From a virus (taxonomy: Duplodnaviria; Heunggongvirae; Uroviricota; Caudoviricetes), in the IMG/VR virus record IMGVR_UViG_2778261122_000004, positions 1 to 28,652 of that record: DNA of 28,652 nucleotides. One strand, given 5' to 3'. This document shows positions 1,718 to 15,120 of this stretch, in pieces (the first letter of the stretch is position 1; each line of letters opens with the position of its first letter). A model generated the notes under the pieces. The model did no database searches. It was given only the letters and a program-made list of their open reading frames with translations, and had not been told where the DNA came from. Both the position numbers and the translations under genes were made by a program.

Positions 1718-1799
1718 TGATTTATTCGGGGCTATATTTCCGACGCGCCAGCAAAATCTGGCGTCGGGATTGGCGTCCCGGATAGAGACCGCGACAGAC

Positions 1800-1823
1800 A
1801 CACGCCGCGAGCGTGTTTTTTTA
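1800..1823 (+). terminator. intrinsic terminator in nin region (tR3/tR4 analogue)
   Basis: 6-bp stem acacgc/gcgtgt (1800-1805 / 1811-1816), 5-nt loop, then T6 run 1817-1822. Confidence 0.6.
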
Positions 1824-1983
1824 TTGTCGAATGCACGCGCACATCTGAATTATGGTGGGCTGTGTGGGGGCGGAGAGATCCGCGCCGGTCGGTTTCCCGG
1901 TTACGCCAACCCTGCACAGTTCACCACCAGACGATTGGCGTCGTCGGTGGTGAGTTATTTAGAAACCACTCGAGGGCGTCATT

Positions 1984-2707: not shown

Positions 2708-2738
2708 TGCTGAATTTTCAATATGAGAGGACATGACA

Positions 2739-3461
2739 ATGAATGAGCTGATAAATAGCAGCATCATCAAAATGACCAGCATTGAAATCGCTGAGTTGGT
2801 GGGAAGTCGTCATGACAAGGTGAAACAATCCATTGAACGACTGGCGGCTCGAGGTGTGATCCGAAATCCCCCAATGGTGGTTTTCGAAAAAATCAATAAC
2901 TTAGGATTACTTCGTGGCGTAGAGGCTTACGTTTTTGAGGGCGAACAAGGTAAGCGCGACAGCATCATTGTTGTCGCTCAGTTGTCGCCAGAGTTCACCG
3001 CTCGCCTTGTTGACCGCTGGCGAGAACTTGAAGGGGCAACTGCGAAAATCCCACAAACCTTTTCTGAGGCATTGCGCCTTGCGGCTGACCTTGAAGACCA
3101 GAAGGCTGAACTGGAGAAACAGCTTGCTCTCGCAGCACCTAAAGTTGAGTTTGCCGATCGCGTTGGCGAGGCCAGCGGAATTTTGATTGGAAACTTTGCA
3201 AAGGTTGTTGGTATTGGTCCAAACAAACTGTTTGCGTGGATGCGCGATCACAAAATCCTTATTGCTTCAGGTTCCCGGCGCAATGTGCCAATGCAGGAAT
3301 ATATGGATCGCGGCTATTTCACAGTGAAAGAAACAGCGGTCAACACAAATCACGGAATACAGATATCGTTCACCACAAAAATCACCGGGCGTGGTCAACA
3401 GTGGCTGACCAGAAAGCTGCTCGATAACGGAATGCTGAAAGTAACAGGGGAGGCTGCTTAA
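2739..3461 (+). CDS. phage regulatory protein Rha / antirepressor (Ant-like)
   Basis: N-terminus (..MTSIEIAELVGSRHDKVKQSIERL..) matches the Rha-family N-terminal motif as recalled; start placed at ATG 2739 (SD gagagga 7 nt upstream) rather than ATG 2733. Confidence 0.65.
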   Translation: MNELINSSIIKMTSIEIAELVGSRHDKVKQSIERLAARGVIRNPPMVVFEKINNLGLLRGVEAYVFEGEQGKRDSIIVVAQLSPEFTARLVDRWRELEGATAKIPQTFSEALRLAADLEDQKAELEKQLALAAPKVEFADRVGEASGILIGNFAKVVGIGPNKLFAWMRDHKILIASGSRRNVPMQEYMDRGYFTVKETAVNTNHGIQISFTTKITGRGQQWLTRKLLDNGMLKVTGEAA

Positions 3462-4346: not shown

Positions 4347-4995
4347 TGGCAGCAAATACCGAAATATTTGGGTAGTTGGCGACCTGCACGGTTGCTACAC
4401 GAACCTGATGAACAAACTGGATACGATTGGATTCGACACCAAAAAAGACCTGCTTATCTCGGTTGGCGATTTGGTTGATCGCGGTACAGAGAACATCGAA
4501 TGTCTGGAATTAATCACATTCCCCTGGTTCAGAGCTGTACGTGGAAACCATGAGCAAATGATGATTGATGGCTTATCAGAGCGTGGAAACGTTAATCACT
4601 GGCTGCTTAATGGCGGTGGCTGGTTCTTTAATCTCGATTACGACAAAGAAATTCTGGCTAAAGCTCTTGCCCATAAAGCAGAAGAACTTCCGTTAATCAT
4701 CGAACTGGTGAGTAAAGGTAAAAAATATGTCATCTGCCACGCCGATTATCCTTGTGACGAATACAAATTTGGAAAGCCAGTTGATCATCAGCAGGTAATC
4801 TGGAACCGCGAACGAATCAGCAACTCACAAGACGGGATCGTGAAAGAAATTAAAGGCGCGGACACGTTTATCTTTGGTCATACGCCAGCAGTGAAACCAC
4901 TCAAATTTGCCAACCAGATGTATATCGATACTGGGGCAGTGTTCTGCGGAAATCTCACATTGATTCAGGTACAGGGAGAAGGCGCGTGGGCATAA
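4324..4995 (+). CDS. ninI: Ser/Thr protein phosphatase NinI (lambda PPase-like)
   Basis: Metallophosphatase motifs GDLHG, GDLVDRG and GNHE present; N-terminus [24 protein letters not shown] matches lambda phosphatase as recalled; start at internal ATG 4324. Confidence 0.9.
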
Positions 4996-5474
4996 GAGAA
5001 CTAAACCTCACCAAAGAACAGCATGAGTGGCTGAATGGCTGGCTTGAACTGTGGGGCGCATGGGTTTATTCAGGTCGTCTGGAAAAGCGCATGAGCAGCG
5101 TAATAGCGAAGTTCATGGAGAGCGTAGAGCCGGGAAGAGTTATGACAAGGCCAATGTGTAATGATGATGATGGAATGTTGATTTCTCAGGTCGTCGATTC
5201 CGTCATGTACATTGACAAGAAAGCCTTTGGAATCCTCCTCAGCTACTACGCTCATGGCTCTTCCAAGCACGCCATTGCATCTTACTATCATCGCGTCGCA
5301 AGACCTCGCAAGATGTTATGCCGTGGCGGCGGGCGCATTCAAAAACCATCGCTCGCAACCTGTCGACGGGAAGTTGACGAAATCCTTAATGCCTCGTTGT
5401 TTATGATTTACCCGGTTCTGGATAGTGCGTTTAAAAATCGGAAACGTGTAGAGAAAATTAAACATGTAGCATAG
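4986..5474 (+). CDS. Q: late-gene antiterminator Q (non-lambda type, possibly phage-21-like)
   Basis: Position between the nin region and the late promoter/lysis cassette; 162 aa if started at GTG 4986 (overlaps ninI stop); next in-frame ATG is 5091. Family assigned by synteny and recalled size, not by alignment. Confidence 0.6.
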
Positions 5475-5480
5475 AACGTG

Positions 5481-5511
5481 TTGACATCATTGAGCAAATG
5501 AGCAACACTAT
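5481..5511 (+). promoter_or_regulatory. candidate late promoter (pR'-like) just after Q
   Basis: Perfect -35 TTGACA at 5481-5486, 7 nt after the Q stop; the -10 is weak (aacact/cactat at 17-19 nt spacing). Confidence 0.3.
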
Positions 5512-5520
5512 TGGCATAAG

Positions 5521-5561
5521 CTGCCGTTAGTGACTCTTAAGTTGCAACGGTGGCTTTTTTT
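5521..5561 (+). terminator. candidate intrinsic terminator or pause hairpin (tR'-like)
   Basis: ctgccgtt (5521-5528) pairs with aacggtgg (5546-5553) including two G-U pairs, large loop, then T7 run 5555-5561. Confidence 0.35.
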
Positions 5562-5565
5562 ATTT

Positions 5566-5640
5566 GGGTCAGTCGCATAAAGGTCATTACGGAAGGCTGT
5601 TAACCTTCTTATCGTGGTTCGAGTCCACGCTGTCCCGCCA
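5566..5640 (+). tRNA. tRNA-like gene, anticodon GUU (Asn-like), degenerate D-arm
   Basis: Hand fold: acceptor gggtcag/ctgtccc (one T-T mismatch), anticodon stem gaagg/ccttc with loop ctGTTaa, T-arm cgtgg-ttcgagt-ccacg, discriminator G, encoded CCA; D-stem pairs only 2 of 4. Confidence 0.4.
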
Positions 5641-5645
5641 AATAT

Positions 5646-5721
5646 GCTGGTTTAGCTCCAATGGTAGAGCAGTCGCCTTGTAAGCGAATGGGTAGCGGTT
5701 CAAGTCCGTTAACCAGCACCA
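5646..5721 (+). tRNA. tRNA-Thr (anticodon UGU)
   Basis: Hand fold: acceptor gctggtt/aaccagc (7 bp), U8 A9, D-arm gctc-caatggta-gagc, anticodon arm gtcgc-ctTGTaa-gcgaa (one mismatch at 27-43), T-arm agcgg-ttcaagt-ccgtt, discriminator A, CCA; G1-C72 and C2-G71 fit Thr identity. Confidence 0.7.
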
Positions 5722-5839
5722 TAACTGAGCCGTAGCCACTGGCTATCCTGAACTCATCAGTGATAGTTATGCCGCGGCCTTCTTTTTTCCCCTTCCCAAT
5801 ATAAGAACTACGCAATCCGTTACTTGCGGAGGCGTTGCT

Positions 5840-6055
5840 ATGAAATCAATGGACAAAATCTCTACTGGCATTGCCTACGGAACATCCGCTGGTAGTGCGG
5901 GATACTGGTTTTTACAGTGGTTGGATCAGGTCAGTCCGTCACAGTGGGCTGCAATTGGTGTGCTGGGAAGTCTAGTTCTGGGCTTTTTGACTTATCTGAC
6001 AAATCTGTACTTCAAAATCAGAGAAGACAGAAGAAAGGCTGCGAGAGGTGAATAA
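5840..6055 (+). CDS. S: phage-21-type class II holin (pinholin S21) with dual-start motif
   Basis: 71 aa; [30 protein letters not shown]... matches S21 as recalled; Met1-Lys2-Ser3-Met4 dual start; two TM segments; SD gcggagg upstream. Confidence 0.9.
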
Positions 6056-12436: not shown

Positions 12437-13657
12437 ATGAAATATTTTTTCAATACCCGGCTGGGGGAAACCCGCTATCAGCTGGCTGACGGCTCGTTGC
12501 TGTGCAAAGACGTGCCGATAGGACGAACAGGTAAGCAGCTCTATGGTGCTGATGACCTGCCAAAACTGAAACCCGATAAGTTCGGTGAAATAGTCGTCAC
12601 ACGTTCTCCTGAGCAGGTATTTCATCCGGCCACGCTTGCCTCATTCGAAGGGATGAGCATCACGATCCTGCATCCTGAAGATGAAAACGGGAATGTGCGG
12701 CTGGTAAATCCCGAGAACTGGAAAGAGCTTGCTGTCGGGCACCTCCAGAATGTCCGGCGCGGGACGGGTGAGCAGTCTGATTTGATGCTGGCTGACCTTA
12801 TCGTCAAAGACGAAAGCGCCATTCAGCTTATCGAAGATGGCCTGCGCGAAGTGTCGTGCGGCTATGACGCGGAGTATGAGCAGACCGAGCCAGGTAAAGC
12901 CGAGCAGGTCGATATTACCGGAAACCATGTGGCTCTTGTCCCCAAAGGCAGAGCCGGAAATCGTTGTGCAATTGGAGACAGAGACACAATGGCAAATCAA
13001 AAGAAAAACTGGTGGAACCGCATGCGTGCAGCCATCAAGACAGGAGATGCCGACACCATGAACGAACTGGTGGAGTCGGCTCCCGCATCGGTTACAGGAG
13101 ATGAGGGGGATTTGCCGCAGGGCGTTAATCTCAACATCAACCTGTCCCCGCAGCAACCACTACCGGACAAAGCACCAGAGATGGGCGGAGGTCCAACCGG
13201 CGACAGTGATGATGACCTCAAAACATTACTGAAATCCCTGCTGGCTAAGCTGGAAGGAAATGCGACGGGCGATAACGATAATAAGCCTGACGATAATCCA
13301 ACCGGTGACGGCGAGGACGATGAAGAGGAAACCACGATTACTGGTGACTCAGCCTGGCGTGCCGAAGTTATCGTTCCGGGTATCGATCTGAGCCGTAAGA
13401 TGAAACCGACCGCGTTCAAACGCGAGGTTCTGGCTTCTGCTGACAAAACGCTGGTTCGCCAGATAGTCGGTGATGCGGATATCCGCAAATTGCCGAAACA
13501 ATCGGTCGACATGGCGTTTAATGCCGTGTCTGAGATTGCCAAAGGGCGAAACACCCGCGCCACCACCGGCGATGCACAGCGCCTAAACATGGGCATGACC
13601 AGTATCGCTTCCCTGAACAAACAAAACGCTGAATTCTGGGCAAACCGTAAAGGGTAA
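12437..13657 (+). CDS. putative head scaffolding/maturation protein
   Basis: 406 aa; position between head-morphogenesis and capsid genes; C-terminal half is acidic low-complexity (GDNDNKPDDNPTGDGEDDEEE), scaffold-like. Confidence 0.5.
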   Translation: MKYFFNTRLGETRYQLADGSLLCKDVPIGRTGKQLYGADDLPKLKPDKFGEIVVTRSPEQVFHPATLASFEGMSITILHPEDENGNVRLVNPENWKELAVGHLQNVRRGTGEQSDLMLADLIVKDESAIQLIEDGLREVSCGYDAEYEQTEPGKAEQVDITGNHVALVPKGRAGNRCAIGDRDTMANQKKNWWNRMRAAIKTGDADTMNELVESAPASVTGDEGDLPQGVNLNINLSPQQPLPDKAPEMGGGPTGDSDDDLKTLLKSLLAKLEGNATGDNDNKPDDNPTGDGEDDEEETTITGDSAWRAEVIVPGIDLSRKMKPTAFKREVLASADKTLVRQIVGDADIRKLPKQSVDMAFNAVSEIAKGRNTRATTGDAQRLNMGMTSIASLNKQNAEFWANRKG

Positions 13658-13660
13658 AAA

Positions 13661-14167
13661 ATGAATAATGTATTTCTGTACCGGATGCCTGTTGGCATTG
13701 CCGGGGCTGTCTCTCGCCCGCAGGACTTAACCGTCGAACCGGTGGTCCTTAAATCCGATAACGCCTTCGCTGCCTATGGCCTGGCTGGTAAATACGATGA
13801 TGACGGTTTTTTCGTGCCGCTGGCAGATGGTGATACCGCAGACAAGGTGAAGGGGATCTACGTGCGCCCTTATCCGACCACTTCGCAGCCGGACATGGTT
13901 CGCCAGGTGGGGACTGGCAAGAACTTCCCGGGCGACGCCATGAAGCGTGGCTACGTGACCGTTAATCTCGGTTCTGATTTTGATGCCAGCACCATCAAAA
14001 AAGGCGACCCGGTATACGTTGTCGTCTCCACTGATGAATCCATCAAAGTGCCGCTGGGTGGATTCATGTCCACGTCAGTCAGTGGCAAAAACGTGGTGCT
14101 GACCAACGCTGAATTCACAGGTGCCGGTGATGCTGACGGCAATGCAGAAATTTCCTGGAAGATTTAA
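13661..14167 (+). CDS. putative head decoration/cement protein
   Basis: 168 aa, immediately upstream of the major capsid gene; assigned by position only. Confidence 0.4.
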   Translation: MNNVFLYRMPVGIAGAVSRPQDLTVEPVVLKSDNAFAAYGLAGKYDDDGFFVPLADGDTADKVKGIYVRPYPTTSQPDMVRQVGTGKNFPGDAMKRGYVTVNLGSDFDASTIKKGDPVYVVVSTDESIKVPLGGFMSTSVSGKNVVLTNAEFTGAGDADGNAEISWKI

Positions 14168-14178
14168 GGAACAGACGA

Positions 14179-15120
14179 ATGATTACTTTTGATCAGGCAA
14201 CCGTTGACAGCTCTGGTGCCTTTCTCATCGGGGAGCTGGAGCGACTCGACCAGACGCTGAACCTGCCACTGGTGGGGTACACCTGGACCCGCGATATTCA
14301 GTTGCGTGAAGATGTCTCTATCGCAGATGACATTTCCAGCTGGACGAATACCAGCTTCGCCGCTGCGGGTACTGGTGCAAATCCGAATGGCAAAAACTGG
14401 GTAGGCAAAGACTCAACCGCTATTGCTGGCGTGAACGTGGATATCGGCAAATCCGGTAACCCGCTGAACCTGTGGGGGATGGAACTTGGCTGGACGGTCA
14501 TAGAATTGCAGGCTGCTCAGCAGGTCGGCCGCCCGATTGATACGCAGAAGTATGACGGTATGCAACTGAAATGGCAGATGGATAACGATGAACAGGTATA
14601 TGTTGGCGATTCCGCATTAAACCTGAAAGGCCTTGTTACCCTGGACGGCGTGCCTGTCAACAACGCTGCTAAAACGTGGGCAACCTCAACACCGGACGAA
14701 ATCCGCGCAAGCATTAACCAGGTGCTGTCTGATGCGTGGGCCGCTTCCGGTTACTCTGTGGTTCCGCGTGATTTGCTGATCCCGCCTGAGCAGTTTGCTC
14801 TGTTGTCCAGCATCATCGTTTCATCTGCGGGTAACCAGTCCCTGTTGACGTATCTTCAGACCAACACCATCAGCTATCACCAGAACGGTGTTCCGCTGAA
14901 TATCCGCGCGGTTAAATGGCTGAAAGGCCGTGGTGTGGGGAAAAAGGATCGCATGGTTGCGTACACCAACGATAAAAAATACGTCCGCTACCCGCTGGTT
15001 CCGCTTCAGAGCGTGCCGGTGCAGTATCGCGGTCTGTATCAGATCGTCACTTACTACGGCAAGCTGGGTGCGGTTGAGCCAGTGTACAAAGAAACCATTT
15101 CGTACGTTGATGGCATTTAA
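14179..15120 (+). CDS. major capsid protein
   Basis: 313 aa; follows the scaffold/decoration genes; AAGGA SD; assigned by synteny and size. Confidence 0.65.
   Translation: MITFDQATVDSSGAFLIGELERLDQTLNLPLVGYTWTRDIQLREDVSIADDISSWTNTSFAAAGTGANPNGKNWVGKDSTAIAGVNVDIGKSGNPLNLWGMELGWTVIELQAAQQVGRPIDTQKYDGMQLKWQMDNDEQVYVGDSALNLKGLVTLDGVPVNNAAKTWATSTPDEIRASINQVLSDAWAASGYSVVPRDLLIPPEQFALLSSIIVSSAGNQSLLTYLQTNTISYHQNGVPLNIRAVKWLKGRGVGKKDRMVAYTNDKKYVRYPLVPLQSVPVQYRGLYQIVTYYGKLGAVEPVYKETISYVDGI

What the first reader, a model, noticed from the sequence alone, without database searches (positions are those of the whole stretch)
5566..5721. Two tandem tRNA-like genes between Q and the holin: canonical Thr(UGU) and degenerate Asn(GUU)-like
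Between the Q stop and S there are about 365 nt containing two adjacent tRNA-shaped sequences, each ending in an encoded CCA. The second folds as a clean cloverleaf with anticodon UGU. The first has good acceptor, anticodon (GUU) and T-arms and discriminator G, but its D-stem pairs only 2 of 4. Lambdoid prophages sometimes carry tRNAs at exactly this site (ileZ-argN-argO in Stx phages), but the isotypes here are different as far as I can tell, and the first may be a decaying or non-canonical tRNA. Being downstream of the late promoter, they would be expressed on induction.
Basis: seen in the sequence. Interest (0 to 1): 0.55.

Follow-up and report, generated by a model that had tools for sequence, protein, structure and literature searches.

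The report
Known phage tRNA-Asn/tRNA-Thr late-leader cassette
The two tRNA-shaped sequences are real tRNA genes, the long-annotated Asn(GUU)–Thr(UGU) pair that phage 21 and many related prophages carry just after their late terminator; the Thr gene has the same sequence as a tRNA shown in 2025–2026 to replace a host tRNA destroyed by the P2 "Old" defence nuclease, and the Asn gene is conserved but carries a rare D-stem point mutation in this copy.

Summary
ARAGORN calls tRNA-Asn(GUU) at 5566-5640 and tRNA-Thr(UGU) at 5646-5721, and Rfam tRNA scores are 47.3 and 61.5 bits against a threshold of 29.

The feature is not new. Q is 162/162 identical to phage 21 Q, and pR', the Q-binding element and tR' match phage 21. 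The same tRNA pair is annotated in phage 21, Sf6, SfI, BTP1 and about 6.5% of complete E. coli genomes.

The Thr gene is 76/76 identical to phage 21 "tRNA-Thr21" and to the HK446 Thr(UGU). Two papers show this tRNA resists P2-OLD cleavage and rescues cells or phages.

The Asn gene is not decaying as a family:
- It is the most conserved stretch of the region (π 0.015, against 0.12-0.16 in the flanks).
- Seven of its pairs covary.
- It precedes the Thr gene in 116 of 120 loci.

Its U4·U69 and U13·U22 mismatches are fixed family traits. This window carries a rare U11→C allele (3 of 374 E. coli records, 0 of 80 viral contigs). That change alone reduces the D-stem to 2 of 4 pairs and costs 8 bits.

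I infer, untested, that the Asn is the second nuclease-resistant replacement tRNA. Host tRNA-Asn is a secondary target of OLD and of PARIS AriB, and the phage copy lacks both published cleavage determinants.

The parts
4986..5474 (+). Q late antiterminator gene, phage 21 type
   Evidence: 162/162 aa identical to phage 21 Q. phrog_943 anti-termination protein Q-like, E 5e-90.
5481..5516 (+). pR' late promoter: -35 TTGACA 5481-5486, Q-binding element ATTGAGCAAATGAGCA 5489-5504, -10 5504-5509, transcription start about 5516
   Evidence: Transferred by alignment from the annotated phage 21 record OL657228. The -35 and QBE are identical. There is one substitution (5513) between the -10 and the start site.
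5518..5565 (+). tR' intrinsic terminator of the late leader: hairpin 5518-5556, then U-tract 5557-5565 that abuts the first base of tRNA-Asn
   Evidence: Annotated as terminator in phage 21 and Sf6. RNA fold -20.2 kcal/mol, z -4.6, 0 of 200 shuffles as good. The simple terminator scan missed it.
5566..5640 (+). tRNA-Asn(GUU), 75 nt, encoded CCA, discriminator G73. Rare C11 allele (C11·A24), plus the family mismatches U4·U69 and U13·U22. Anticodon arm GAAGG-CUGUUAA-CCUUC.
   Evidence: ARAGORN. Rfam 47.3 bits. One base from the phage 21/Sf6/HK446 allele. Covariation. Conservation.
5641..5645 (+). 5-nt inter-tRNA spacer AAUAU
   Evidence: Sequence. Variable among homologs: AAAUAU/AAACAU in the alignment, π 0.128.
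5646..5721 (+). tRNA-Thr(UGU), 76 nt, encoded CCA. G1-C72 and C2-G71. 4-bp anticodon stem (G27·A43), U28-A42, G39.
   Evidence: ARAGORN. Rfam 61.5 bits. 76/76 identical to the phage 21 tRNA-Thr and the HK446 tRNA-Thr, which were tested experimentally in PMC12445682 and bioRxiv 10.64898/2026.07.10.737580.
5729..5792 (+). Conserved hairpin (5729-5778) after tRNA-Thr, followed here by the U-rich run CUUCUUUUUUCCCC. It marks the right end of the shared cassette. Possibly a 3' processing or terminator element.
   Evidence: Fold of 5722-5839: -35.6 kcal/mol, z -3.5. The hairpin is shared with HK446 and Sf6, whose sequences diverge right after ...GCGGCCTTCT. Function not tested.
5840..6055 (+). S21-type class II holin (pinholin) with dual start MKSM; first gene of the late operon after the tRNAs
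   Evidence: phrog_9876/phrog_20 holin. Annotated S21-71/S21-68 in phage 21.
6055..6552 (+). Endolysin (SAR endolysin in the phage 21 annotation)
   Evidence: phrog_7 endolysin, E 7e-70. Phage 21 annotation.

Best explanation
The element is the phage 21-type late-leader tRNA cassette. It consists of tRNA-Asn(GUU), a 5-nt spacer, tRNA-Thr(UGU) and a 3' hairpin, placed directly after the tR' terminator of the Q-dependent late promoter and before the lysis genes.

Proposed mechanism:
1. pR' transcripts stop at tR' unless Q has modified RNA polymerase. On lytic growth the read-through late transcript therefore carries both tRNAs at its 5' end. This is inferred from the anatomy and from the phage 21 annotation.
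2. The host tRNA-processing enzymes are presumed to excise them; this was not tested.
3. tRNA-Thr(UGU) is a cleavage-resistant substitute for host tRNA-ThrU, the only reader of ACA. Host tRNA-ThrU is the prime target of the P2 prophage Old Toprim tRNase and a main target of PARIS AriB. This step has been shown experimentally by others for the identical 76-nt sequence.
4. tRNA-Asn(GUU) most likely does the same job for host tRNA-Asn, a secondary substrate of both nucleases. This step is my inference and is untested.
5. A useful side effect is extra decoding capacity for ACA, which is 2.3-fold enriched in the phage genes.

The copy in this window carries a rare U11→C change that weakens the Asn D-stem. 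Whether that allele is fully active is unknown.
For: Identity and context:
- The tRNA calls.
- Q is 100% identical to phage 21 Q, and pR', QBE and tR' match phage 21.
- The pair is annotated in phage 21, Sf6, SfI, BTP1 and by PGAP.

Thr function:
- The window Thr is 76/76 identical to the phage 21 Thr and the HK446 Thr.
- PMC12445682 reports that tRNA-Thr21 protects Old+Gam+ cells. It is not cleaved by OLD without ATP, and its site 1 is almost fully resistant. [quoted passage not shown] I see the same features in the window copy.
- The 2026 bioRxiv preprint reports that the HK446 Thr(UGU) gives strong counter-defence against OLD.

Asn is maintained:
- π is 0.015 in Asn, against 0.12-0.16 in equally close non-coding flanks, across 113 loci.
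- Seven pairs change on both sides, with 0 of 500 shuffles as high. The anticodon stem is paired in 100% of cells.
- Asn precedes Thr in 116 of 120 loci found from the Thr side.
- Asn persists where Thr is replaced by Gly(UCC).
- The two lineages occur in 368 and 346 of 5426 E. coli genomes.
- The cassette sits behind both Q21-type and lambda-type Q (HK446).

Asn as a resistant replacement:
- Host tRNA-Asn(GUU) is a secondary, biologically relevant AriB target cut at 40|41 within U36AAUC (PMC12409363). It is also among the tRNAs whose cleavage by P2-OLD was followed by northern blot, with ThrU cleaved fastest.
- Host asnT has CNG on both stem strands and U39. The phage Asn has neither (AAG/CUU, C39). 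The divergent Asn lineage and the validated T5 Asn also lack both.

Choice of isoacceptors:
- P1 carries an independent adjacent Asn(GUU)-Thr(UGU) pair.

Expression:
- The BTP1 RNA-seq paper sets the two tRNA genes aside when listing genes above 100 TPM. It places the start of the lytic operon directly after them.
Against: - No experiment has tested the Asn gene. The 2026 preprint describes HK446 as encoding a single Thr(UGU) tRNA and does not mention the Asn gene.
- Lacking CNG and U39 is the default for any foreign tRNA, so it shows compatibility only.
- AriB also needs determinants away from the cleavage site.
- The cassette lacks tRNA-Lys(UUU), the prime AriB target. Asn plus Thr would therefore not be expected to neutralise the characterised PARIS system alone.
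- The 2026 preprint does not list Asn among preferred OLD targets.
- The Klebsiella (Mulock-type) Asn keeps CNG on both strands, and the P1 Asn keeps UAAUCA.
- The tRNAs are made only after Q acts, and Q itself contains an ACA codon. Rescue must therefore come late in infection.
- For this window, C11·A24 lowers the tRNA score by 8 bits and the cloverleaf energy by 4.7 kcal/mol. The predicted MFE fold of the window allele is not a cloverleaf.
Confidence: 0.7

Rival explanations
1. Codon supplementation only. The tRNAs raise the supply of decoders for codons that the phage late genes use more than the host does, and have nothing to do with defence nucleases.
For: ACA is 12.6 per 1000 codons in the window's late genes against 5.4 in a 14.7k-codon K-12 sample (19.8% against 10.2% of Thr codons, Fisher p 4e-6). 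Asn codons are 47 against 38 per 1000. The SfI paper reports the same ACA bias.
Against: AGG (6.2x), AGA (5.1x), AUA (2.6x), GGA and CGG are all more enriched than ACA (2.3x), yet the phage carries no tRNA for them. Asn enrichment is small, the host has four Asn tRNA genes, and the SfI authors found no Asn bias. Host Thr(UGU) overexpression does not rescue OLD toxicity or OLD defence, whereas the phage variant does. That points to resistance rather than dosage. The two explanations can coexist.
Confidence: 0.25
2. The Asn gene in this window is a non-functional or impaired passenger. The U11→C change disables the D-arm, and the gene survives only because it is linked to the useful Thr gene.
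For: C11·A24 leaves 2 of 4 D-stem pairs. Rfam score is 47.3 against 55.3 bits for the U11 allele. Cloverleaf energy is -14.4 against -19.1 kcal/mol, and the MFE fold is not a cloverleaf. The allele is rare: 3 of 374 E. coli records, 0 of 80 viral contigs, and phi458 is the only exact match among the phage records listed. A truly decaying copy exists elsewhere (L136, anticodon mutated to GAU plus other changes).
Against: The allele is found in at least three mosaic backgrounds: this myovirus-type prophage, phi458, and the CP53 lambda-like prophage. It differs from the conserved family sequence by a single base. All identity elements known for E. coli AsnRS (G34, U35, U36, G73; from prior knowledge, not checked in a source here) and the conserved tertiary bases are intact. 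The score is still 18 bits above threshold. PGAP does not flag it as a pseudogene. At family level the pseudogene idea is contradicted.
Confidence: 0.2
3. The tRNAs compensate for a host tRNA gene disrupted by prophage integration. The 2026 preprint suggests this for HK446.
For: HK446, SfI and many relatives integrate into thrW, a tRNA-Thr(CGU) gene.
Against: The cassette also occurs in a prophage integrated next to ybhC, not in a tRNA gene. It encodes Thr(UGU) and Asn(GUU), not Thr(CGU). It lies behind tR' in the late operon, so it should be largely silent in a repressed lysogen. From prior knowledge, attP of such phages usually restores the tRNA 3' end.
Confidence: 0.03
4. The tRNA structures act mainly as RNA-processing punctuation. 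Excision of the tRNAs removes the tR' leader and sets the 5' end and stability of the lysis and late mRNA, and decoding is incidental.
For: tRNA-Asn starts at the base right after the tR' U-tract, and a conserved hairpin follows tRNA-Thr. The BTP1 lytic operon is described as beginning directly after the tRNA genes.
Against: This does not explain why anticodons GUU and UGU, aminoacylation identity elements and encoded CCA are conserved, why the same two isoacceptors recur in P1 in another context, or why the Thr anticodon is required for rescue. Lambda-type late leaders work without tRNAs.
Confidence: 0.05

Closest known systems
Phage 21 late-leader tRNA-Asn / tRNA-Thr (OL657228 39591-39746; 'tRNA-Thr21' of PMC12445682)
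   Same: Same Q (100% aa), pR', QBE, tR', tRNA order and spacing, and S21 holin. Thr is identical 76/76 and Asn 74/75.
   Different: U11→C in Asn, one spacer base, and a few bases after Thr. The rest of the window phage is a different mosaic, with a myovirus-type structural module about 97.5% identical to vB_EcoM-689R2.
HK446 Thr(UGU), the OLD-resistant tRNA of bioRxiv 10.64898/2026.07.10.737580
   Same: Identical Thr sequence. The same Asn–Thr–hairpin cassette is present.
   Different: In HK446 the cassette sits behind a lambda-type Q, pR' and tR', followed by a lambda-type holin. The preprint mentions only the Thr gene. HK446 also has the protein inhibitor Oad2. Whether this window's phage has Oad2 cannot be seen, because the recombination region lies outside the window.
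Phage T5 tRNA-Lys(UUU)/Thr(UGU)/Asn(GUU) set that neutralises PARIS (PMC12409363)
   Same: The same two anticodons. Substitutions fall at the same determinants: non-U at 39, a changed 41, no CNG, and a weakened or altered anticodon stem.
   Different: T5 is a virulent phage with about 25 tRNAs, including the essential Lys(UUU) variant, which the cassette here lacks. The sequences are unrelated beyond general tRNA similarity. T5 tRNAs are expressed from their own promoters.
Phage P1/P7 tRNA-Asn(GUU)–tRNA-Thr(UGU) pair (AF234172 69348-69501)
   Same: The same two isoacceptors, in the same order, adjacent (2-nt spacer). The Thr is about 80% identical with a shared T-arm.
   Different: The P1 Asn is an unrelated sequence with canonical stems (74.5 bits). 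The P1 Asn keeps UAAUCA and the P1 Thr keeps both CNG motifs. The genomic context differs (after dmt and the ban operator, before plp/upl/tciA).
Stx-phage (933W-type) ileZ-argN-argO tRNAs downstream of Q
   Different: They read rare codons AUA and AGA/AGG, which fits supplementation. The isoacceptors and sequences are different. They are not known to be targets of OLD or AriB.

Membership tests
Bacterial elongator tRNA (Rfam RF00005) | Full-length match to the tRNA covariance model above the gathering score | tested here: met
   Thr 61.5 bits and Asn 47.3 bits, against GA 29, model positions 1-71 of 71. ARAGORN calls both.
Bacterial elongator tRNA (Rfam RF00005) | Four-arm cloverleaf maintained by compensatory change among homologs (tested on the Asn lineage) | tested here: met
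   21 distinct Asn variants: 89.5% of cells paired, 7 pairs with changes on both sides, covariation 0.158 against 0.063 in shuffles (0 of 500 as high). Slid registers pair in at most 54% of cells. Exceptions fixed in the family: U4·U69 and U13·U22. The window alone has C11·A24.
Bacterial elongator tRNA (Rfam RF00005) | Conserved tertiary and loop bases (U8, A14, G18G19, U33, purine 37, T-loop TTCRA) and encoded CCA | tested here: met
   Read directly from both sequences: Asn has U8, A14, GG in the D-loop, CUGUUAA, UUCGAGU and GCCA. Thr has U8, A14, GG, CUUGUAA, UUCAAGU and ACCA.
Bacterial elongator tRNA (Rfam RF00005) | Mature, aminoacylated tRNA present in cells | not testable with these tools
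   Indirect evidence only. The BTP1 RNA-seq paper sets its two tRNA genes aside from the list of genes above 100 TPM. The Thr sequence functions genetically and depends on its anticodon class.
Phage 21-type late-leader tRNA cassette | Position directly after the tR' U-tract of the Q-dependent late promoter and before the holin | tested here: met
   Alignment to annotated phage 21, Sf6 and HK446. The tR' fold. Holin and endolysin follow downstream.
Phage 21-type late-leader tRNA cassette | Sequence identity of both tRNAs to the type copies | tested here: met
   Thr 76/76 and Asn 74/75 against phage 21.
Nuclease-resistant 'rescue' tRNA (counter-defence against tRNA-cleaving systems) | Same anticodon as a host tRNA that a defence nuclease destroys | tested here: met
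   Thr(UGU) is the prime P2-OLD target and a main AriB target. Asn(GUU) is a secondary AriB target, and its cleavage by OLD was followed by northern blot.
Nuclease-resistant 'rescue' tRNA (counter-defence against tRNA-cleaving systems) | Altered cleavage determinants relative to the host tRNA (OLD: paired CNG at 28-30 and 40-42 plus a 5-bp stem; AriB: U36AAU39C40|N41) | tested here: met
   Host thrU has CUG/CAG and U39. Window Thr has UCG/CGA, G39 and a 4-bp stem. Host asnT has CGG/CCG and U39. Window Asn has AAG/CUU and C39. This is weakly diagnostic, because most foreign tRNAs would also lack these motifs.
Nuclease-resistant 'rescue' tRNA (counter-defence against tRNA-cleaving systems) | Demonstrated resistance to cleavage, and rescue of cells or phage | not testable with these tools
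   For the Thr sequence this was shown by others (PMC12445682; bioRxiv 10.64898/2026.07.10.737580). For the Asn sequence I found no test in either paper or in literature searches.
Stx-phage rare-codon tRNA set (ileZ-argN-argO) | Isoacceptors for AUA and AGA/AGG | tested here: not met
   The window holds only Asn(GUU) and Thr(UGU), even though AGG, AGA and AUA are the most enriched codons in its late genes.
tRNA pseudogene | Neutral decay: diversity like the flanking non-coding DNA, uncompensated stem changes, loss of the anticodon | tested here: not met
   π is 0.015 against 0.12-0.16 in the flanks. There is covariation. The anticodon loop is intact. For this particular allele the test is inconclusive: one uncompensated stem change (C11·A24) costs 8 bits. 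The tRNAscan-SE pseudogene test is not available here, but PGAP does not flag the identical allele.

The most novel reading that the evidence does not exclude
The Asn gene is the so-far untested second half of a portable two-tRNA counter-defence cassette. Together with the validated Thr(UGU), it would supply a cleavage-resistant tRNA-Asn(GUU) that lets lambdoid, P22-like and related temperate phages finish late translation in cells where Toprim tRNases carried by competing P2-like prophages or P4-like satellites (P2 Old, PARIS AriB) have destroyed the host tRNAs. The fixed U4·U69 acceptor mismatch, retained even in a lineage whose other three arms are replaced, may be a further evasion or recognition feature. 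The recurrence of the same Asn+Thr pair in P1 would then reflect selection by the same nucleases.
Probability: 0.45. Interest if true: 0.5.

Novelty: already known. Interest (0 to 1): 0.3.

Why it matters
As a sequence feature it is ordinary: a well-annotated tRNA pair present in about 6.5% of complete E. coli genomes. Its value lies in what the comparison shows.

- The exact Thr sequence here is a published anti-Old tRNA, so this prophage probably carries a working counter-defence against P2-type interference.
- Its constant partner, tRNA-Asn, has not been examined. One of the experimental papers describes HK446 as having a single tRNA, although ARAGORN finds both.
- Both published rescue studies report only partial suppression by single tRNAs and ask what the full set of resistant tRNAs is.
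- A conserved, covarying Asn(GUU) that lacks both known cleavage determinants and sits 5 nt upstream of the validated Thr is an obvious candidate to test.

Tried and rejected
- **Source of the window.** I looked for the window's own phage to reuse its annotation. phi458 is 100% identical over 5470-5850, and E. coli CP53 carries the exact Asn allele. Both turned out to be different lambda-like mosaics that share only the Q–tRNA module. I therefore chose gene coordinates for codon counting from the ORF list.
- **Promoter and terminator scan.** The simple scan of 5400-5900 found neither the known pR' nor tR'. Its negative result says nothing. Folding and homology were used instead.
- **Gly(UCC) variant.** I considered that the phage Gly(UCC) found at this site in some relatives escapes OLD through an A37G change. 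On recounting the loop, the change is A38G and A37 is kept, so I dropped the idea.
- **Integration-site mimic.** I considered that the phage Asn might mimic a host asn-tRNA integration site. The acceptor and 3' end differ completely from host asnT, so I did not pursue it.
- **Papers not held.** Guo et al. 1991 (PMC207295) and Sargen & Helaine 2024 (PMC11840918) are not in the library. I cannot say what they report about these tRNAs.
- **Literature on the Asn partner.** Searches for any statement linking the Asn partner, or the pair in lambdoid, P22-like or P1 phages, to nuclease evasion found none.
- **Minus-strand ORF.** ORF 5609-5815 (68 aa, TTG start) overlaps both tRNA genes. I treated it as a mechanical ORF.
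Full report
**1. Observation**

ARAGORN finds two tRNA genes in the whole window: tRNA-Asn(gtt) at 5566-5640 and tRNA-Thr(tgt) at 5646-5721, both on the + strand. The Rfam tRNA model matches both end to end. Thr scores 61.5 bits (E 3e-11) and Asn scores 47.3 bits (E 2.5e-7), against a gathering score of 29.

Both genes encode CCA. The Asn discriminator is G. The Q stop to holin start distance is 365 nt.

**2. What the locus is**

The stretch 5470-5850 is 100% identical to Escherichia phage phi458, 97.6% to phage 21 and 96.8% to SfI. The core 5517-5783 is 97-99% identical in P22-like phages such as BTP1, Sf6 and SPN9CC. Part of the stretch is found in 983 of 5426 complete E. coli genomes, where PGAP annotates tRNA-Asn and tRNA-Thr.

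The curated phage 21 record annotates, in order: Q, pR' (-35, the Q-binding element QBE, -10, start site, sigma-dependent pause element), the tR' terminator, tRNA-Asn, tRNA-Thr, and the S21 pinholin/antiholin. The Sf6 record of 2003 already says 'tRNA-Asn … tRNA-Thr … similar to phage 21'. The SfI paper describes the pair and lists Sf6, ST64T, PS3 and phage 21 as carrying one or both.

In the window:
- Q is 162/162 identical to phage 21 Q.
- The -35 and QBE are identical to phage 21.
- The tR' hairpin folds at -20.2 kcal/mol (z -4.6), and its U-tract ends at the base before tRNA-Asn.
- A holin, an endolysin and a spanin follow downstream.

The rest of the window is a different mosaic from phage 21. 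It has two Ant antirepressors, RusA and NinI upstream, and a myovirus-type structural module about 97.5% identical to vB_EcoM-689R2 downstream.

**3. The Thr gene**

The window Thr is 76/76 identical to the phage 21 Thr gene and to the Thr gene that ARAGORN finds in HK446.

PMC12445682 (NAR 2025) shows that the P2 prophage Old protein is a Toprim tRNase. [quoted passage not shown] The paper also shows that 'tRNA-Thr21' of phage 21:
- protects Old+Gam+ cells;
- is not cleaved without ATP;
- is far less cleaved at physiological K+;
- has near-complete resistance at site 1;

A 2026 preprint independently finds that the HK446 Thr(UGU) restores plating of OLD-sensitive phages, whereas host Thr(UGU) does not.

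My table of anticodon arms shows these features in the window copy: GUCGC/GCGAA, 4 bp, UCG/CGA instead of CUG/CAG, and G39 instead of U39. So the function of this exact sequence is already established by experiment.

**4. The Asn gene, at family level**

The window Asn differs from the phage 21, Sf6, JLK-2012 and HK446 allele at one base, C11 instead of U11.

*Conservation.* Across 113 viral-contig loci, nucleotide diversity is 0.015 in Asn positions 28-75. It is 0.124 in the 49-nt leader on the other side of the ascertained segment, 0.128 in the 5-nt spacer, and 0.163 in the 62 nt after Thr. A decaying gene would look like its flanks.

*Covariation.* Twenty-one distinct Asn variants keep the cloverleaf. 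89.5% of cells are paired, and seven pairs change on both sides (for example 6-67 A-U↔G-C, 7-66 G-C↔A-U, 28-42 A-U↔C-G). The covariation score is 0.158 against 0.063 in shuffles, with 0 of 500 shuffles as high. Slid registers pair in at most 54% of cells.

*Fixed mismatches.* Two non-pairs, U4·U69 and U13·U22, are present in essentially every variant. A divergent lineage (4 loci) has its D, anticodon and T arms all replaced by different, fully paired sequences, yet keeps the same acceptor stem including U4·U69. These are therefore family traits, not damage.

*Score.* The common U11 allele scores 55.3 bits, inside the range of the E. coli K-12 tRNA genes scored here (53.4-74.6 bits).

*Linkage to Thr.*
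- When loci are found from the Thr side, 116 of 120 have an Asn(GUU) gene in front.
- When loci are found from the Asn side, the Thr is sometimes replaced by Gly(UCC) while Asn stays.
- In complete E. coli genomes the two lineages occur in 368 and 346 genomes.

*Mobility.* In HK446 the cassette sits behind a lambda-type Q, pR' and tR'. Its edges are the tR' U-tract on the left and a conserved hairpin (window 5729-5778) on the right. It is therefore a mobile unit.

**5. The Asn gene, in this window**

U11→C converts U11-A24 into C11·A24. This single change is why the D-stem has 2 rather than 3 Watson-Crick pairs.
- It costs 8 bits (47.3 against 55.3).
- It costs 4.7 kcal/mol of cloverleaf energy, and the predicted MFE fold of the C11 allele is not a cloverleaf.
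- The allele is rare: 0 of 80 viral contigs, 3 of 374 E. coli records, and phi458 is the only exact match among the phage records listed.
- It occurs in at least three different mosaic backgrounds, so it is a real allele rather than a sequencing error.
- PGAP annotates it as tRNA-Asn without a pseudogene flag.

Whether it is fully active cannot be decided here. A genuinely decaying copy does exist elsewhere: L136 has its anticodon mutated to GAU and carries further changes.

**6. Why Asn together with Thr**

*Codon supplementation explains little.* ACA is 2.3-fold enriched in the window's late genes relative to a K-12 sample. But AGG, AGA, AUA, GGA and CGG are enriched more, and the phage carries no tRNA for them. 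Asn codons are only 1.25-fold up, and the host has four Asn tRNA genes. The SfI authors likewise found no Asn bias and called the role of the Asn tRNA unclear.

*The two anticodons match the target lists of two Toprim defence tRNases.*
[quoted passage not shown] It cuts between 40 and 41 within U36AAUC. U39→A abolishes cleavage and a change at 41 reduces it. The T5 Lys+Thr+Asn variants together neutralise PARIS.
- P2-OLD cleaves ThrU fastest. Asn(GUU), Lys(UUU) and Val(UAC) were followed alongside it as comparison substrates and were cleaved more slowly. Its substrates share paired CNG motifs and A37.

*The phage Asn lacks both determinants.* Host asnT has CGG/CCG and U39. The cassette Asn has AAG/CUU and C39. 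The divergent Asn lineage (UCG/CGA, C39) and the validated T5 Asn (no CNG, G39) also lack both.

*P1 carries an independent pair.* P1 has an adjacent Asn(GUU)-Thr(UGU) pair whose Asn is unrelated in sequence. This argues for selection on this particular pair of isoacceptors.

I therefore think the Asn gene is most likely a second resistant replacement tRNA.

*Caveats.*
- Nobody has tested it.
- Absence of CNG and U39 is the default for a foreign tRNA.
- AriB needs additional determinants away from the cut site.
- The cassette lacks Lys(UUU), the prime AriB target.
- The 2026 preprint does not list Asn among preferred OLD targets.
- The Klebsiella-type Asn retains CNG, and the P1 Asn retains UAAUCA.

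**7. Expression**

The anatomy places both tRNAs after tR', so they should be made when Q antiterminates. This is an inference. The BTP1 transcriptome paper sets its two tRNA genes aside when listing prophage genes above 100 TPM, and it places the start of the lytic operon directly after them. That is consistent with expression and with excision of the tRNAs from the late transcript.

Rescue by these tRNAs would act on late protein synthesis. Q itself contains one ACA codon and must be translated before the tRNAs appear.

**8. Verdict**

It is wrong in treating the arrangement as unrecognised and in suggesting that the Asn gene is decaying as such.

The feature is already known. Its Thr half has a published function as a counter-defence tRNA against P2 Old. 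The remaining open point is the Asn half, for which this analysis gives conservation, covariation and determinant-level evidence but no proof. A rare D-stem mutation in this window leaves the activity of this particular copy uncertain.

Noticed in passing
window 1732-1931 (+), with genes 1984-2664 and 2733-3461: Rfam hits to c4-a1b1 (50.2 bits), isrK Hfq-binding RNA (78.2 bits) and C4 antisense RNA (66.7 bits) lie directly upstream of two Ant antirepressor genes (phrog_377, phrog_63). This looks like a P1/P7 immI-like, Gifsy-1 IsrK-like antisense-controlled antirepressor module.
   Followed up: no
window 5729-5792 (+): A conserved hairpin sits right after tRNA-Thr and is part of the cassette shared with HK446 and Sf6. 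In this window and in phage 21 it is followed by CUUCUUUUUU and so looks like a terminator. In HK446 and Sf6 the sequence diverges immediately after the hairpin. It may be a 3' processing or terminator element of the tRNA unit.
   Followed up: partly
L132 (HK446, NC_019714) 35097-35252: ARAGORN finds both tRNA-Asn and tRNA-Thr in HK446. They are unannotated in the record and lie behind a lambda-type Q, pR' and tR'. The 2026 preprint describes HK446 as encoding a single Thr(UGU) tRNA.
   Followed up: yes
four IMG/VR loci from the Thr-pattern scan: A divergent tRNA-Asn(GUU) has an acceptor stem identical to the cassette Asn, including the U4·U69 mismatch. Its D, anticodon and T arms are completely different and fully paired. 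This suggests internal replacement by recombination, or strong selection on that acceptor stem.
   Followed up: partly
L004 (JLK-2012, JQ347801) 1087-1240: The JLK-2012 tRNA-Thr is a chimera. Its 5' half is the phage type and its 3' half is like host thrU, with a 3-bp anticodon stem. It is followed by a host-like tRNA-Gly(UCC) with A38G, and then tciA/tciB as in P1.
   Followed up: partly
L006 (Klebsiella phage Mulock) 1001-1320, and several IMG/VR loci: Expanded arrays are built on the same cassette: Asn–Phe(GAA)–Thr–Arg(UCU), sometimes with Gly(UCC) added. The Klebsiella-type Asn has compensatory changes at 6-67, 7-66 and 28-42, and unlike the E. coli type it has CNG on both anticodon-stem strands.
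   Followed up: partly
L136 (IMGVR_UViG_2657245634_000025): One copy of the Asn gene has its anticodon mutated to GAU plus three other substitutions, so ARAGORN calls it Ile(gat). This is what real decay of the gene looks like, in contrast with the window copy.
   Followed up: no
window 5609-5815 (-): A 68-aa ORF with a TTG start lies antisense over both tRNA genes. It is most likely a mechanical ORF.
   Followed up: no
L131 (E. coli CP53, NZ_CP033096) 13390-14789: The lambda-like CP53 prophage that carries the same C11 Asn allele has an IS5 inserted in its cro gene. It also encodes Gam, the known trigger of P2 Old.
   Followed up: no
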